A stretch of DNA of 64,000 nt, from positions 33,852,001 to 33,916,000 of the forward strand of contig CM074514.1 of the NCBI GenBank assembly GCA_037379345.1. Reading direction: 5' to 3'. The first letter of the stretch is position 1. Every line of letters starts with the position of its first letter. Position numbers: made by a program. This document shows positions 18,001 to 24,000 of this stretch, piece after piece. The stretch comes from Perna viridis. Its lineage: Eukaryota.

Positions 18001-21000
18001 TGGATCCATTTGGTCGGAAAAAATCATTTTGAGCATTTTTTTGCGGTGATGGAATAGGCCGTCTGCTTCAAAGACAACAAATTAATGAACAATGTCATAA
18101 GTAAAAATCATGATGTACAGTCTCGTGATAAAATGTTTGTCATCGTATAGAATGATCCATGTTCCATTCCCAGCAGACGACATCTATCATTTTTACAGTG
18201 TATTGTGGGAACAAAAGATTTCCATGGTTTCTTTTGAGATTTCATAATATTTGTTCATCAGACATGCTTGATAGACAAGAGTACCTGTACTTTAATTTAA
18301 GCTTTCATGTTCTTTACTGAAACAGATAGATAGTTACTGAATATTTCAGAAACCTGTTTAATCAAATAATCAGTTGTCAAAAAGATGCATATTTGACCTG
18401 TGTATTGCAGTATCCTGTCTTATCCAATAAAGTTTCTGATCGTTGGAGTAGTTGAGATTGGTTTGACAGAAAAGCCTATATACCACCTCCCCACCCACCA
18501 AAATAAAAGAAAACAAGCAAAAAAAAGGACCCTTCTTGTAAAGCAAATACACTGAAATTCAAAAATATTTACCCTCCCCCCCCACCAGGGACCCTCAAAC
18601 AAAAAAGCCAAAGAACCTGTCTTATAAAGTAACTACAAACGTGCATACTCTCTTTTTCTACTACTTTAACATTAAGTAGAATAAATGGATATAAACTTGA
18701 TCAAAAGAGTGCTTGTCTTAAATCAATGCTTTTACCAACTGTTGTACATTGACATGCCTTAAGATTAACATTTATGACTATTTCTGACATTGACAGTGGG
18801 TCTTTTGATTTTTCTCATTGAACATTGTCCACAAAAATATTTGGCTTTGACTCTGGTCTATTTGGAAAACTCTTAAAATTAATTTTGGAAGTAAATGGAA
18901 AGTTGCTTACAAAATTGGTAAACTACATTTTAGCAGAAAAGGTAAAGATTCAAAACTTATGAGATATCAGTCTGACTACAGGGCAAGCATATAACACAGC
19001 AATGTTATGGAATTCAAAGTGAGTGGCAAGCTCTTGTTAATCGTGGATGGAATCCTGTAGAAAATTAATTAATTTGTTCTGATTTGATTTGTGTTTATTT
19101 TACACAGGTTTTACCACTAAGTTCAGAATATGATTTTGTTTAAACAGGTTTTTTTTAGTGTTCAGTGAAACCTGTCAATACTGAACCAATAATAATACCA
19201 AAACCTGCCTAAACCAGACACTCTTGCAAGTTCCTTTACATAAATTTGAATGTATTTCAGTCTAAATTAATAAAAAAAAATGCAAGGTCTAATTTCAATT
19301 AGACTGAATGTATTTTGAATCTTTGTGAACTGAACACCTGTCTAAACCAAACAAAATTTTAGGGTCCAAAAGGGGTTTGTTTTAGACAGTTTTCATCATA
19401 TATTCCATTAGAAGTGGACTATATTCCACTTTATTCCTGGGTGTTTTATGTTATGAAAAATATATTCAAAATCTTTCAAGCGTTTTAAAACTTTATAATC
19501 ATGATAATGATGTGTTGTTTCATACAACTATAGGATTTCAGAAATCCTTTGTTTACATTTTTTTATACAGTATGGTTAAACTACAATTGTGAAAGCCCAT
19601 GTTTGGTTGCTTATGAATTTGCTAATCTTTGAAATATATGAAAAGATAATTGAATAGTAGTTGAAAATGGGTTGCAGTTTTATCCATCAATATTCCAGAA
19701 TAATTTCCTGAACAAAAAGAGTTTTGTAGATGATTACATCAGAAAAACACATTTACACAGTCCTTTGTTCAGTATATTTAGCACTTAAAAGGTTTAGTTA
19801 CTATTATTTAACATTTTCACTTTAAAACAAGAAAATCCACAGTTGCTCAAACTTTGAAATAAAAAATGAGTCTGTAGAAAAGTTGCTGAAAACTCCAGTA
19901 GTAAATTCTCGTTTTTATCATTTCTTTCCCCTCTGGAATGCTAACTTTCACATATAGATTTTGTGTCTCTTACAAAAATCACTTATACTATCACATACAC
20001 GAAACTGGCACTAAAGATACTTCATCGAAATGCACTATGCTTTTTCTTAAAAAACATTAAAAAAATACTATATCCATCCAACATTAAAATGCTATGCACA
20101 CACAACTATCATAAAATTTAAATATACATGTTTCACATGTGTAAATTCAACACATATCTACAATCTCATCCAGGAACAGAACACGGAGAATTTTTCCCAT
20201 AATCCTTTGCTAGACAACAGAAAAAGACATTGCATTATGGTGCATGTCAATGTTAGGTCTATGATGTACCATCGCTGTGGTAACTGTCTGTTTATGTTGG
20301 AGTGACTGTAGACCCAGTGCTGGGGTCTGTTTGTGTGGATGTTGTGGTGATTGTAATTCTCCAAACGTTGATGGAAATTCTCCCAAGGTGGGATTTGTTG
20401 ACATGTAGGATTTTGATATGCTAGTCAGTAGTGGTGTCATTTGAATTGGTCCGTACTGATTTTGAGATTGATAAGAAACAGGAACCATGGAGTCACTAAA
20501 CTGCCGTGACGGCGGTAAGTGATGCATGGGCATGTTAATAGTGTCCTTAGTTATTGTAGAAATTGGCAGAAAATTTAAGTCTGTCTCTATCTCGTTTATG
20601 TCTAACTCCTTTTGATTGTGTTTAAGTCGTGGATGAGATGCTTTCTTCTTTTGAATTGGATATGAATGTCGACTAGATTGCACACGCTTCATTGGGTCAC
20701 TGTCTTTCAATGATGAATGTGCACATATGTGTTCTTTTTCACTGCATATAGGTTTGAATACTGGAGTATCTTTTTCATTTCCTGTGCTATTTTGAGCACT
20801 ATGGCAATACTGTCCAGATCGAGAACTTCGAAATCCTGAATCTTCTGAATCAGTCGAAGCTTGAGAAATTGGTCTATCACTTTCAAACTTGTACTGAGTC
20901 TCGCTTAAATCAGACATTCCACTATCATGGAATGTATTGTACATTGCTTTTGATTCATTTGAAGGTAAATCAGGACTGGCATCGAAGGCTTCATTGTGTT

Positions 21001-24000
21001 CTGCGTAATCCCCAGAATGAATTGAACTGTTTGCTCTCCAGTATTTCTCTGTTTCTATTAATTTGGCACTATTATAATCATCAGATTTGTTTTTCTTCTT
21101 TGCAAATCTTTTATGAGGGTCATGTTTCTTTGTCATCATTTCTTTGCGAATTTTGTGCTTTCGTAAACAGAATAAAAATATCACAAAAAGGACTAATGTT
21201 ATTACGGCAGGAATGATAATTCCAAGATAGAATAGAAATCGTAACGTCATGCTGCTTGTCATGGTTGGAGCATCACGGGAAAAATGTCTGACTGAATGTC
21301 ATCCATTCTTAAGTTAATACTAAATCTGTCCACTAACACATCGTGTTTGGCTTAAGTCTGAAAATAAAAAAAAATGAAGAAAAAAAGTTGAAAAATGCAA
21401 ACATGAAAAATGATAACATGATTAGGTAAAATATCATGTATTTTTCATAATGATGGATGGTCTAACAGAAATTTATGAAAATTGCTAACAAGAGTTTACC
21501 TTGAATATTTTTCATGTCTGTGTATCTTATTAAGTGCTTTGCTTTGTGTTGAACTAAGAAATATTTTTCAGTGATAGAAGTAAATAAATGGGGACATGTT
21601 TAAAGTTTACAGTGAAAAATTGAGTGTTGATAGTTCATTGTTCATATCTGTGCTTAGGTAATCAGTCATGCTGGTGAAAGGTCATCTAAAGAGCATATGT
21701 CTTTCAGGATAAAAAGTTTTTCAACAGAATGTCAAATGTTTTGGAGGCTAGGCAGAATTATAAATTTACATGATTGATATGGCTATTCATACATGTTGGA
21801 CATGCATATTGTTTGCATATTTAAATTGTCTAAAAGAAAGTTACAAATTTTATTAACTATATCACTATAAGGCTCAGGTTTATCACTTATTTGTTTTGGT
21901 AGAAATATTATTCAGGTTGATTTTCAGAGTAACCATATGATTTGAATGGAATGTAATCAGGGATTATGATTCTCTTTTGAATAATAATTTATTCCATTTT
22001 GTAATCTCCTTTCTTAACTATTGCAGTAGTCAATCTCATTTTTTTTTTAAATACCAGTATTTTATTTGCATCATCTAATCAGATTTATTCTGTCTTGTAA
22101 TTTCTATGATGAACTAAGAGAAAGTCTGAAATGATCGTAAAGCAATAGTCGTTTTTTTTTTTTTTTTTTTTAATTCTACAAATTCTAGTACATGTACTTA
22201 ACTTCCATTACTATGAAGGATTTTTCTTGCCCTGACTTCTTCATAAACAAAATAAAATTGACCAACAAAATGGTCTAGACGCTTAAGGTTTCTTTTTTCA
22301 TAATCTCTAAATGAGTCTGACAGTTCAGAGATTTAAACACAACAAAAGGATATGGTAAGAAAGTGTGGTACAATAGTGATTCGGGTACTCATCACACTAA
22401 TCATGTACTTGAGAAAAATCATGGATGTGGTGAGACGCTGCGATACTAGATCTTCAAATATATAGAAAAGAGATGATGATTGAGGATTGACACAATCATT
22501 GACATGTTGGAAATAAAGCATGAAAGGATTAAGATCCTTGGGTCATGTTTGCTTTTGAATTTTGACGAGGAGTTTATAAGTAAGAATTTGAGAAACTTGG
22601 TCTTCGTTGAAGTAATTCTATTGTGAAAACCATGAATAATTTTCTGCCTTTTTAGGTTTGATTTGGTTATATTAAAATTTAAATTTGTGCACTTTATGGC
22701 TTCGATAAGTGAGTTATGGTCCATAATATTTTTATTATGGAAATGTATGCTACGACTCAATTAAATTTGCGAGAGATTGATGTCAGAGATATCCAGAGGT
22801 CTCACTTTGGAGGCCCTCTCGTTGATACGATATCAGATTATTTGCATATTATTGGAATGTTACTCTTTGGAGGTCTTGGGAATGAAGTTAATCAGATATC
22901 TACCATATTTTCATTGAAAGATGATTATTACATTACAATGTGGAAAAAAAGGGGAATGCATTATCCACTTTATTGGCCAGAAGAGGAAAAAAGCTATTAT
23001 TACAATAATGATAGAGTTTTGTGTACTTAATTTATCTGGATAAATATATTCTTGTCAAAATTTTATCATATTTCTAAGACAACCAACTGTGGTCTAAAAT
23101 GATTATAGTGATACTTTGTTCAGGAAAACTGATTATGTTTTTTCAGAAGTCATTTAACAAAGGGAGATAATTACCTAAAAATCAACATGGGGTTTTTGAA
23201 AGAATCATTTTTTGTATGATTTTAGAGACAAAATCTTTACTTTTTATTTTAAAAAAGTCTTAAAGTTCACTGGGCTATTCATGTTTAATTCAGCAAATCT
23301 TGAAGTTTATGATCTGAAAGTTTTTTTGTTTTTTTTTGTTTTTTTTGTTTTTGTGTAAAAATGAAAACAATTGATGCATGACTTTGTGACCAACTTATTA
23401 AAGGAGCCAATGAAAGCATGAGATCTTAAGCAGGTGAATTAGGTACGAGGGCAATGAAGAGAAAATACACCTATTATTTTTCATATTTTTTAAAAAGCTG
23501 TTTTTCAGCTGTGTAATTTAGACATATATTTTTCATTTAGGCTTGCGTGAGGTTATCAGGTCATCTCTCAAACAGGTGATTTTCAAACAAAGTTGGACAT
23601 TTTTGTAGTCAATTAAATTCTCATTATCAAGTTTCAGTATGTTGTAGATTTGTTCTTTGTAAATTTAATTAAGAAACTATAGAAATGCTTTGTAATTGAA
23701 AAAAGAATACCTTTCCATTGTTCTTGTGTAAGATGACACTTATTTTGAAAATTACGTTTGAAATTGACAAAATTGTCGAGTTAAAATAATTGGATTTAGA
23801 GAAGTACGAAAGATCCTTTAGAAAATTGCCTCATAATTGAATTTCTTAAAAGTTTCTTTGACAATAAATTTTGTAATTGTTTCCTCTATGAACAGCTATC
23901 TGTGAATTTTCAAGTCTCAACATTTTTATTATTTTTTATTTTTGGAAAGGCTGTTCAGGAAACAGAAAACAATATTTGTTGCCTTTCAAACTGTTGCACG

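What the first reader, a model, noticed from the sequence alone, without database searches (positions are those of the whole stretch)
20210..21262. Protein has the layout of a transmembrane signalling adaptor (TRAP-like)
Seen in the translation: no signal peptide, an ~8-residue N-terminus, one TM helix ending in Cys followed by RKHKIRK, and then ~315 low-complexity residues. These contain DSGFRS (canonical beta-TrCP DSGxxS phosphodegron) after the acidic/Ser run SQASTDSE, a second DSGMSDLS, HNEAF (NxxF sorting-type motif), RPIS and RQFS basophilic sites, several Tyr (DDYNS, GDYAE, MYNTF, TQYKF), and a class I PDZ ligand S-V-V at the C-terminus. Established: LAT/PAG-type adaptors share this topology. 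Inference: an invertebrate adaptor or scaffold with phospho-regulated turnover.
Basis: partly seen in the sequence, partly recalled or inferred. Interest (0 to 1): 0.66.

Follow-up and report, generated by a model that had tools for sequence, protein, structure and literature searches.

The report
Single-pass membrane protein with disordered tail
A real gene in an AT-rich, animal-like genome encodes a membrane-anchored protein with almost no outside part and a long, mostly floppy inside tail carrying two likely "destroy-me" tags; no search for relatives could be run, so its role remains a testable guess.

Summary
The ORF is real. It lies at 20210-21262 on the minus strand and has 350 codons (362 stop-to-stop). 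The next longest open frame in the window is 157 codons, and 50 simulated windows never exceeded 175.

Hydropathy and flanking charge support an N-out, C-in single-pass topology with an 8-residue N-terminus. The coding sequence most likely sits in one exon. A strong acceptor-like site lies 95 nt upstream, and all three frames are closed between it and the ATG.

No family was found in Pfam or PDB. The Atlas gave only layout look-alikes.

The TRAP reading is supported for layout only. There is no CxxC and no YxN, and SH2-type Tyr motifs occur at chance level (3 observed, 3.23 expected). NxxF and RxxS are also at or near chance.

The non-random signal is a pair of DSG-hydrophobic motifs. One is DSGFRS and the other is DSG(X)4S. 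Both are followed by QY at the same spacing, and the second is fed by an RxxS-SxxS-SxxS ladder.

Best reading: a membrane scaffold controlled by, or recruiting, SCF-beta-TrCP/Slimb, with a PDZ-binding end. Interest is modest.

The parts
20210..21262 (-). Coding sequence: 350 codons plus TAG stop (20210-20212). It appears to lie in one exon.
   Evidence: It is the longest open frame in the window by a factor of 2.3 and shows codon-position periodicity.
21239..21262 (-). Residues 1-8 (MTSSMTLR), predicted extracellular or lumenal N-terminus. The ATG context is ACCATGA.
21164..21238 (-). Residues 9-33, the single transmembrane helix (25 hydrophobic residues). Cys32 (21167-21169) sits at the cytosolic boundary and is a candidate S-acylation site; that role is inferred.
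   Evidence: KD19 maximum 3.19. No second peak exceeds 0.35.
21086..21163 (-). Residues 34-59, polybasic juxtamembrane stretch with 13 K/R in 26 residues. This sets the positive-inside orientation.
20891..20926 (-). Residues 113-124, DSGMSDLSETQY. This is a DSG(X)4S variant of the beta-TrCP-type degron, followed by QY.
   Evidence: The variant class is taken from passages of PMC10487276.
20807..20875 (-). Residues 130-152, RPIS-QAS-TDS-EDSGFRSSRSGQY. A basophilic RxxS site is followed by Ser at 3-residue spacing (S133, S136, S139, S142). This ladder runs into the canonical DSG-hydrophobic-x-S motif (141-146), which is followed by QY at the same spacing as in the first motif.
   Evidence: The CK1 consensus pS/pT-X-X-S/T comes from passages of PMC7733671.
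20213..20221 (-). Residues 348-350, S-V-V at the free C-terminus. This has the form of a class I PDZ ligand.
   Evidence: P=0.026 in shuffles. Binding was not tested.
21263..21357 (-). Probable 5' leader within the same exon. It is preceded by a polypyrimidine tract and CAG (AG at 21358-21359). It holds 4 upstream ATGs. One opens a 15-codon uORF (21259-21306) whose TGA overlaps the main ATG.
   Evidence: pyrimidine fraction 0.90 and all three frames closed before the ATG. There is no transcript evidence.
19430..19435 (-). First AATAAA after the stop, 775 nt downstream. A second lies at 19094-19099, 1111 nt downstream. Both are candidate polyadenylation signals.
   Evidence: Actual use is inferred.

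Best explanation
This is a real protein-coding gene whose whole coding sequence lies in one exon, probably behind a non-coding 5' exon.

INFERRED FROM THE SEQUENCE.
- The product is a type III (N-out, C-in) single-pass membrane protein: 8 residues outside, one 25-residue helix, and a polybasic juxtamembrane stretch.
- The 317-residue cytoplasmic tail has no recognisable domain and is predicted disordered over at least its first ~180 residues.

INFERRED.
- Cys32 at the cytosolic edge of the helix is a candidate S-acylation site.
- The protein works through short linear motifs in the tail.
- The central acidic, Ser-rich segment (about residues 104-152) carries two beta-TrCP/Slimb-type phosphodegrons: DSGMSDLS (the DSG(X)4S type) and DSGFRS (the canonical type).
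- A basophilic kinase at RPIS133 could prime CK1-type phosphorylation of S136, then S139, then S142, completing the second degron.
- Once phosphorylated, the tail binds SCF-beta-TrCP. Either the protein itself is ubiquitinated (the tail has 28 Lys) and removed, or it brings the ligase to neighbouring membrane proteins.
- The C-terminal S-V-V anchors it to a PDZ scaffold.

Overall it is a membrane scaffold with phosphorylation-controlled turnover rather than a phosphotyrosine adaptor.
For: GENE IS REAL.
- The frame is 362 codons. The next longest is 157, and the maximum in 50 simulations was 175.
- GC at codon positions 1/2/3 is 0.44/0.38/0.31. Chi2 is 25.4 against a maximum of 15.7 in 964 random windows.
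- It is single-copy in the window. The best other tblastn hits have E 5.7 and 5.9.

TOPOLOGY.
- There is one hydrophobic peak. Flank charges are +1 (N side) and +5 (C side). 13 of 26 residues after the helix are K/R.

SINGLE CODING EXON.
- There is an in-frame TGA 12 codons upstream.
- An acceptor-like site with 0.90 pyrimidines puts the exon's first base at 21357, and all three frames are closed between it and the ATG.
- Only 2 other AGs keep the frame open, and their tracts are 0.40 and 0.35 pyrimidine.

NO DOMAIN.
- Pfam gave 4 hits, all below the curated cut-offs and all over residues 9-71.
- PDB gave 1 hit at E=2.5.
- The Uversky hydropathy of the tail is 0.385, below the boundary of 0.418.

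MOTIFS, 50,000 shuffles.
- Two DSG: P=0.0023.
- Two DSG followed by a hydrophobic residue: P=0.00012.
- At least one DSGx7QY: P=0.00016, and two are observed.
- RxxSxxSxxSxxS: P=0.0035.
- SxxSxxDSGxxS: P=0.00026.
- The two DSG serines use AGT and TCA codons, and the 12-residue motifs share only DSG and QY. This argues against a recent duplication; inferring selection on the motif from that is my own step.

LITERATURE (passages read).
- DSG-Psi-X-S is the beta-TrCP consensus, with accepted DSG(X)4S (CDC25A) and DSG(X)3S variants (PMC10487276).
- The CK1 optimum is pS/pT-X-X-S/T, and CK1 completes the YAP/TAZ degrons after priming (PMC7733671).
Against: - No orthologue could be examined, so none of the motifs is shown to be conserved.
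- The pair statistics were computed after the pattern had been seen, so they overstate significance.
- The CK1 review itself says most cellular proteins carry at least one CK1 consensus motif.
- SxxSxxSxxS alone occurs in 8.4% of shuffles.
- The first DSG motif does not fit the stricter DSG.{2,3}[ST] pattern (one search lists only the one at 141).
- A class I PDZ ending has P=0.026 here but is common among proteins in general (recalled).
- There is no transcript, expression or phosphorylation evidence.
- The Atlas recognition value of 1657 is below the 2300 reached by 91% of proteins of known families.
- The C-terminal third is only borderline by the disorder score and could hold an undetected fold.
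- Structure prediction could not be run.
Confidence: 0.4

Rival explanations
1. The gene is real but lineage-restricted and fast-evolving. It encodes a membrane protein with a disordered tail, and the DSG, RxxS and S-V-V strings are chance features of a Ser-rich sequence. The function lies elsewhere, for example in the TM helix or the polybasic region, and does not involve beta-TrCP.
For: - No family in Pfam or PDB.
- The Atlas recognition value is low, 1657.
- The pair statistics are post hoc.
Against: - Two DSG-hydrophobic motifs with identical spacing to QY are rare in shuffles (P about 1e-4).
- They sit in the most Ser/Thr-dense, net-acidic part of the tail, which is where kinase-dependent degrons are expected.
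Confidence: 0.28
2. This is the first reader's reading: a TRAP-like (LAT/PAG-type) phosphotyrosine adaptor. Tail tyrosines are phosphorylated by Src/Syk-type kinases and dock SH2 proteins.
For: - The layout matches the TRAP definition in PMC3342071 (passages): a few residues outside, one TM helix, and a non-enzymatic tail.
- There are 10 Tyr in the tail, and 3 have D/E at position -1 or -2.
- There is a Cys at the helix end.
- The Atlas lists a LIME1 cluster at 0.86; scores under 0.9 are leads only.
Against: - 0 YxN, 0 YxxM, 0 YxxP and 0 ITIM-type motifs.
- Pooled SH2-type motifs are 3 observed against 3.23 in shuffles, P=0.68.
- The 2 YxxQ have P=0.10.
- There is no CxxC.
- No TRAP family appeared in Pfam even at E up to 10.
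Confidence: 0.12
3. The ORF is the last exon of a larger type I receptor. Upstream exons on the minus strand supply a signal peptide and an ectodomain.
For: - An acceptor-like site lies just upstream, so the gene probably has at least one more 5' exon.
- Two AGs (exon start at 21291 or 21287) would keep the frame open.
- Short exons cannot be excluded by ORF scans.
Against: - The in-frame TGA lies 12 codons before the ATG.
- All three frames are closed after the strong acceptor.
- The two frame-preserving AGs have pyrimidine fractions of only 0.40 and 0.35.
- Of 50 minus-strand open frames of at least 60 codons upstream of the ORF (22.3-62.9 kb), 2 hit Pfam at E<=0.01. One is PerB at 45032-45298. 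The other is Fn3_ELFN at 60631-60813 (17.2 bits against a cut-off of 27), 39 kb away and beyond a plus-strand exon.
- Of 150 minus-strand frames of 28-59 codons in 21.3-39.7 kb, 4 hit DUF families at E 0.029-0.044, where about 7 are expected by chance.
Confidence: 0.07
4. A divergent member of the FAM176/EVA1 family. That family contains EVA1A/TMEM166, a lysosome- and ER-associated regulator of autophagy.
For: It is the best Pfam hit: PF14851, E=0.0081, residues 9-65 on profile positions 24-79 of 152.
Against: - The score is 16.4 bits against a curated cut-off of 31.5.
- The match covers only the TM helix and the basic stretch.
- Three unrelated families (EVC2_like, DUF6249, DUF4834) match the same segment.
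- Profile positions 80-152 have no counterpart.
Confidence: 0.05

Closest known systems
Transmembrane adaptor proteins (TRAPs: LAT, NTAL, PAG/Cbp, LIME, LAX)
   Same: A very short outside part (LAT 4 aa, PAG 16 aa), one TM helix, and a long tail without enzymatic activity that carries docking motifs (PMC3342071 passages). A LIME1 cluster appears among the Atlas look-alikes at 0.86.
   Different: - TRAPs are defined by tyrosine-based SH2-docking motifs (YxN and others), and most have a juxtamembrane CxxC.
- Here there is no CxxC and no YxN, and Tyr motifs are at chance level.
- No sequence similarity was detected.
HIV-1 Vpu (a membrane-anchored beta-TrCP adaptor)
   Same: Both have a small N-terminus, one TM helix, and a cytoplasmic part with a DSG-Psi-X-S motif that recruits beta-TrCP once phosphorylated. 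In Vpu, casein kinase II does this constitutively (PMC10487276 passages; PMC1933454 abstract as listed).
   Different: - This is an analogy of layout only.
- Vpu is a small viral protein (size recalled) with one degron and a folded helical tail (recalled).
- This is a 350-aa protein, presumably of the host genome, with two degron-like motifs, a long tail and a PDZ-type end.
Receptor tails and other substrates with beta-TrCP degrons (PRLR, CDC25A, YAP/TAZ)
   Same: DSG-type phosphodegrons completed by hierarchical phosphorylation. Examples are the DSG(X)4S of CDC25A and CK1 acting after a priming kinase in YAP/TAZ.
   Different: These proteins have ectodomains or folded domains and known signalling roles. 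This protein has neither, and phosphorylation or binding has not been shown.
FAM176/EVA1 family (Pfam PF14851)
   Same: Single-pass membrane proteins. This is the best, but weak, Pfam match, over the TM and juxtamembrane segment.
   Different: The score is 16.4 bits against a cut-off of 31.5, and the rest of the profile is unmatched.
Viral single-pass proteins with disordered signalling tails (poxvirus A36R/OPG164, HCMV UL135) and the Semaphorin 6A tail cluster
   Same: They are the top Atlas look-alikes by language-model features (0.90, 0.87 and 0.90). The 'TM helix plus disordered tail' layout of these proteins is recalled, not given by the call.
   Different: Shared features number 147-157 of 256, below the 170 typical of true family members. 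The recognition value is also low. These are leads only, not evidence of kinship.

Membership tests
TRAP class (LAT/PAG/LIME/LAX) | Very short extracellular N-terminus with no cleaved signal peptide | tested here: met
   8 residues precede a 25-residue hydrophobic stretch. This rests on a simple hydropathy and charge calculation, not a trained predictor.
TRAP class (LAT/PAG/LIME/LAX) | Single TM helix and a cytoplasmic tail without an enzymatic domain | tested here: met
   There is one hydrophobic peak. No Pfam domain reaches its threshold.
TRAP class (LAT/PAG/LIME/LAX) | Juxtamembrane CxxC palmitoylation motif (LAT, NTAL and PAG have it; LAX lacks it) | tested here: not met
   Cys32 is the only Cys near the helix, and there are 0 CxxC. 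The definition comes from PMC3342071 passages.
TRAP class (LAT/PAG/LIME/LAX) | Several tyrosine-based SH2-docking motifs (YxN and others) | tested here: not met
   0 YxN, 0 YxxM, 0 YxxP and 0 ITIM-type motifs. Pooled motifs are 3 observed against 3.23 in 20,000 shuffles, P=0.68.
TRAP class (LAT/PAG/LIME/LAX) | Tyrosine phosphorylation by Src/Syk kinases and SH2 recruitment | not testable with these tools
   This needs an experiment.
beta-TrCP/Slimb substrates or adaptors | DSG-Psi-X-S motif or an accepted variant (DSG(X)3S, DSG(X)4S) | tested here: met
   DSGFRS at 141-146 and DSGMSDLS at 113-120. The motif definitions come from PMC10487276 passages.
beta-TrCP/Slimb substrates or adaptors | Phosphorylation of both serines and binding to the beta-TrCP WD40 domain | not testable with these tools
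   The complex tool offers no eukaryotic reference protein, so no job was sent.
beta-TrCP/Slimb substrates or adaptors | Motif conserved in orthologues | not tested
FAM176/EVA1 (PF14851) | Score at or above Pfam's gathering cut-off over the family domain | tested here: not met
   16.4 bits against 31.5. Only profile positions 24-79 of 152 are matched.
Class I PDZ ligands | Free C-terminus of the form [S/T]-x-hydrophobic | tested here: met
   The protein ends S-V-V, then TAG. Binding to a PDZ domain is not testable here.
Type III (N-out, C-in) signal-anchor membrane proteins | A long hydrophobic segment near the N-terminus with more positive charge on its C-terminal flank | tested here: met
   The segment is 25 residues. 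Flank charges are +1 and +5, and 13 of 26 residues after the helix are K/R. The positive-inside rule is applied from established knowledge.

The most novel reading that the evidence does not exclude
This is a cellular counterpart of HIV-1 Vpu: a host-encoded, membrane-anchored adaptor whose paired, kinase-gated DSG motifs recruit SCF-beta-TrCP/Slimb to a PDZ-organised membrane complex. The protein would then direct degradation of neighbouring membrane proteins rather than only of itself.
Probability: 0.08. Interest if true: 0.6.

Novelty: new member of a known kind. Interest (0 to 1): 0.28.

Why it matters
If the paired degrons are functional, this would be a compact, easily testable example of a membrane scaffold whose abundance is set by a priming kinase, CK1 and SCF-beta-TrCP. 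It could also be a host-encoded protein that brings the ligase to the membrane, as Vpu does. As it stands, it is an unannotated single-pass membrane protein with a plausible but unproven motif-based hypothesis. That is useful for annotation and would not surprise a specialist.

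Tried and rejected
STRUCTURE PREDICTION. One job was accepted and failed on the server. There is therefore no model and no fold search. The disorder statements rest on composition only.

ATLAS SEARCH WITH THE TAIL ALONE. It did not complete three times because the machine was closed or busy.

SEARCHES THAT FOUND NOTHING USEFUL.
- Sequence search of PDB: nothing (1 hit at E=2.5).
- Rfam: 0 matches. 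tRNA scan: 0 genes.
- Paralogues in the window: none.

MORE EXONS OF THE PLUS-STRAND HAT-REPEAT GENE. I looked for them to decide whether the ORF is nested in it.
- 0 of 150 composition-ranked short plus-strand frames hit a UTP6 or HAT family.
- 0 of 150 further plus-strand frames in 21.3-46 kb hit one either.
- Motif greps found only the known exon.
- The relation of the two genes stays open.

WEAK Fn3_ELFN HIT. I chased it as a possible ectodomain exon. It lies at 60631-60813 on the minus strand, scores 17.2 bits against a cut-off of 27, and is 39 kb upstream. I rejected it as chance.

LITERATURE. A search for invertebrate TRAPs listed 10 of 725 papers, none relevant by title. I make no claim about what is in print.

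NOT RUN.
- Complex prediction: its reference proteins are bacterial, archaeal or phage, so beta-TrCP could not be supplied.
- The genome-contig scan and the phage, plasmid and E. coli BLAST collections: they hold no animal genomes.

The composition-based exon score separated the target ORF (27.8 against at most 12.9 for any other segment) but was too weak to find other exons.

Full report
WHAT IS THERE.

The window is 64,000 bases with no N. GC is 29-35% in every one of its 32 2-kb windows. Nothing suggested a human contig and I do not take it for one. The source organism stays unknown.

On the minus strand an ATG-to-stop ORF runs 21262 to 20210, giving 350 aa plus TAG. The open frame is 362 codons stop-to-stop. 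Evidence that it codes:
- The next longest frames in any of the six frames are 157 and 152 codons. The 152-codon frame is the antisense shadow of this ORF.
- Stops make up 6.6% of codons, so about 1e-7 frames this long are expected. In 50 Markov-1 simulations of the window the longest frame averaged 130 codons and never passed 175.
- GC falls from 0.44 to 0.38 to 0.31 over codon positions 1 to 3.
- The codon-position composition test gives chi2 25.4. The maximum over 964 random 1050-nt windows was 15.7.
- The sequence is single-copy within the window.

I regard it as a real or very recently real gene.

THE OBSERVATION.

There are two small corrections.
- The helix ends F-C32-L33 before RKHKIRK.
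- The tail is Ser-rich (13.9%) and polar rather than low-complexity. Mean 20-residue entropy is 3.32 bits.

A charge-hydropathy score calls the tail as a whole disordered (0.385 against a boundary of 0.418). In 51-residue windows, residues 34 to about 210 are clearly negative. Windows starting at 212-300 are weakly positive, up to 0.16. The C-terminal third is therefore borderline. Structure prediction would have helped here but could not be run.

TOPOLOGY.

- There is one hydrophobic peak: Kyte-Doolittle 19-residue mean 3.19 at residue 15. Nothing outside residues 1-40 exceeds 0.35.
- The hydrophobic stretch F9-L33 is 25 residues, too long for the core of a cleaved signal peptide (established knowledge).
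- The N-flank carries +1. The 15 residues after the helix carry +5, and 13 of the 26 residues after it are K/R.

GENE MODEL.

- An in-frame TGA lies 12 codons before the ATG.
- A polypyrimidine tract (0.90 pyrimidine) ending in CAG would put an exon's first base at 21357. From there all three frames hit stops before the ATG. An upstream coding exon joined at that site therefore cannot read into the ORF.
- Only two other AGs (exon start 21291 or 21287) keep the frame open, and they have poor tracts of 0.40 and 0.35.
- The ATG context is ACCATGA.
- The presumed leader holds four upstream ATGs. One opens a 15-codon uORF whose TGA overlaps the main ATG.
- AATAAA occurs 775 and 1111 nt after the stop.

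I also looked for ectodomain-type exons upstream on the minus strand.
- Of 50 frames of at least 60 codons lying between 22.3 and 62.9 kb, two hit Pfam at E<=0.01. One is PerB at 45032-45298. The other is Fn3_ELFN at 60631-60813 (17.2 bits against a cut-off of 27). It lies 39 kb away and beyond a plus-strand exon.
- Of 150 frames of 28-59 codons in 21.3-39.7 kb, four hit DUF families at E 0.029-0.044, fewer than chance predicts.
- Exons shorter than 28 codons were not examined.

FAMILY SEARCHES.

- Pfam gives four sub-threshold hits, all on residues 9-71, which is the helix and the basic stretch. The best is FAM176 at E=0.0081 and 16.4 bits against a cut-off of 31.5.
- PDB gives one hit at E=2.5.
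- The ESM Atlas does not hold the sequence. Its recognition value is 1657, below the 2300 reached by 91% of proteins of known families.
- The nearest Atlas clusters are a Semaphorin 6A cluster (0.90), an arthropod hypothetical protein (0.90), poxvirus A36R (0.90), HCMV UL135 (0.87), LIME1 (0.86), and the TMIE and opalin clusters (0.85). They share 111-157 of 256 features.
- By my own reading (recalled, not shown by the call), these are membrane proteins with short outer parts and unstructured tails.
- I read these as agreement on layout, not as kinship.
That is the main gap.

WHICH MOTIFS EXCEED CHANCE.

In composition-preserving shuffles of the tail:
- DSGxxS: P=0.011.
- A class I PDZ-type ending: P=0.026.
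- Four RxxS: P=0.069.
- NxxF: P=0.44.
- Yxx[LIMVF]: P=0.62.
- Two YxxQ: P=0.10.
- YxN, YxxM, YxxP and ITIM-type: none.
- Pooled SH2-type motifs: 3 observed against 3.23 expected.
- CxxC: none.

The passages I read in PMC3342071 define TRAPs by a few extracellular residues, one TM helix and a tail with tyrosine-based motifs. LAT, NTAL and PAG have a juxtamembrane CxxC, and LAX lacks it. The layout fits that definition. The features that make a TRAP a phosphotyrosine adaptor are not found.

THE STRONGEST SIGNAL.

There are two DSG motifs, each followed by a hydrophobic residue and each followed by QY at exactly the same distance: DSGMSDLSETQY at 113-124 and DSGFRSSRSGQY at 141-152.

In 50,000 shuffles:
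- Two DSG: 0.23%.
- Two DSG-hydrophobic: 0.012%.
- At least one DSGx7QY: 0.016%.
- RxxSxxSxxSxxS: P=0.0035.
- SxxSxxDSGxxS: P=0.00026.

The second motif is preceded by RPIS133-QAS136-TDS139-EDS142. That is a basophilic site followed by serines every third residue, running into the first degron serine.

These numbers were computed after I saw the pattern and are optimistic. SxxSxxSxxS alone occurs in 8.4% of shuffles.

The two motifs share only DSG and QY, and their DSG serines use AGT and TCA codons. This speaks against a recent duplication. I infer that it is compatible with selection on the motif itself.

Literature read as passages:
- DSG-Psi-X-S is the beta-TrCP consensus. DSG(X)4S in CDC25A and DSG(X)3S in ATF4 and p105 are accepted variants.
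- Vpu uses a casein-kinase-II-phosphorylated DSG motif to bring beta-TrCP to CD4 (PMC10487276).
- The optimal CK1 site is pS/pT-X-X-S/T, and CK1 completes the YAP/TAZ degrons after a priming kinase. The same review warns that most proteins contain some CK1 consensus (PMC7733671).

MOST LIKELY MECHANISM (inferred, not shown).

- The protein is a type III membrane protein held at the membrane by its helix and by the polybasic stretch. Cys32 may be acylated.
- Its tail is a motif scaffold.
- A basophilic kinase at S133 primes CK1-type phosphorylation of S136, S139 and S142. Together with S146 this creates a beta-TrCP/Slimb binding site. The DSG(X)4S motif provides a second site.
- SCF-beta-TrCP then ubiquitinates the Lys-rich tail (28 Lys), or neighbouring proteins.
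- The S-V-V end ties the protein to a PDZ scaffold.

I give this 0.4. The main rivals:
- The motifs are chance in a fast-evolving orphan: 0.28.
- A hidden ectodomain: 0.07.
- Distant FAM176 membership: 0.05.

SURROUNDINGS.

- The only other recognisable coding piece is a plus-strand exon at 58890-59075, with an AG acceptor and a GTAAAA donor.
- It matches UTP6_C at 28.2 bits against a cut-off of 27, plus HAT-repeat families. PDB finds only generic HAT-repeat proteins, best E=0.0013.
- No further exons of that gene were found in 300 short plus-strand frames.
- Whether the ORF is nested in that gene or merely neighbours it is therefore open.
- Cumulative GC skew is flat to 20 kb and rises from there to the end of the window. 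In mammals this pattern would suggest plus-strand transcription (recalled). It was not tested here.

VERDICT.

The TRAP label fits only at the level of layout. The phospho-degron idea is the part worth testing. Without orthologues or transcripts this remains an ordinary uncharacterised single-pass membrane protein with one attractive hypothesis.

Noticed in passing
window 58890-59075 (+): An exon with an AG acceptor and a GTAAAA donor encodes a HAT repeat. Its best match is Pfam UTP6_C (28.2 bits against a cut-off of 27). This indicates a U3 snoRNP UTP6-like gene on the opposite strand. Its other exons were not found.
   Followed up: partly
window 21259-21357 (-): The presumed 5' leader holds four upstream ATGs. 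One opens a 15-codon uORF whose TGA stop overlaps the main ATG (ATGA). That arrangement could throttle translation of the main ORF.
   Followed up: no
window 48870-50267: A block of tandem arrays: 31-nt unit x 23.6 copies (48870-49606), 28-nt unit x 9.7 copies (49782-50049), and shorter 28-, 48- and 56-nt arrays. This window also has the strongest local GC skew (0.229).
   Followed up: no
window 42957-43393, 59356-59685, 62021-62329: A dispersed repeat family is present in direct and inverted copies (79-95% identity). Open frames across the copies are similar (...SVFH[IV]WSL...ILLISARILVPLITL...), and Pfam hit none of them. A second family has copies at 8529-8672 and 38454-40081.
   Followed up: partly
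window 20758-21216 (+): A 152-codon open frame lies antisense to the coding sequence. It is most simply a shadow of the real ORF on the other strand.
   Followed up: no
window 22713-23027 (+): A 105-codon open frame has a rather protein-like composition (...RSHFGGPLVDTISDYLHIIGMLLFGGLGNE...). It gave no Pfam hit at E up to 0.1. It lies about 1.4 kb upstream of the ORF on the other strand.
   Followed up: partly
window 1-64000: Cumulative GC skew is flat over 1-20 kb and climbs from 20 kb to the end of the window. AT skew is negative in 29 of the 32 2-kb windows. This may reflect plus-strand transcription across the right-hand two thirds of the window.
   Followed up: no
window 22152-22170 (-): A run of about 19 A on the minus strand lies roughly 0.8 kb upstream of the acceptor-like site. 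It may be the tail of a retroposed element.
   Followed up: no
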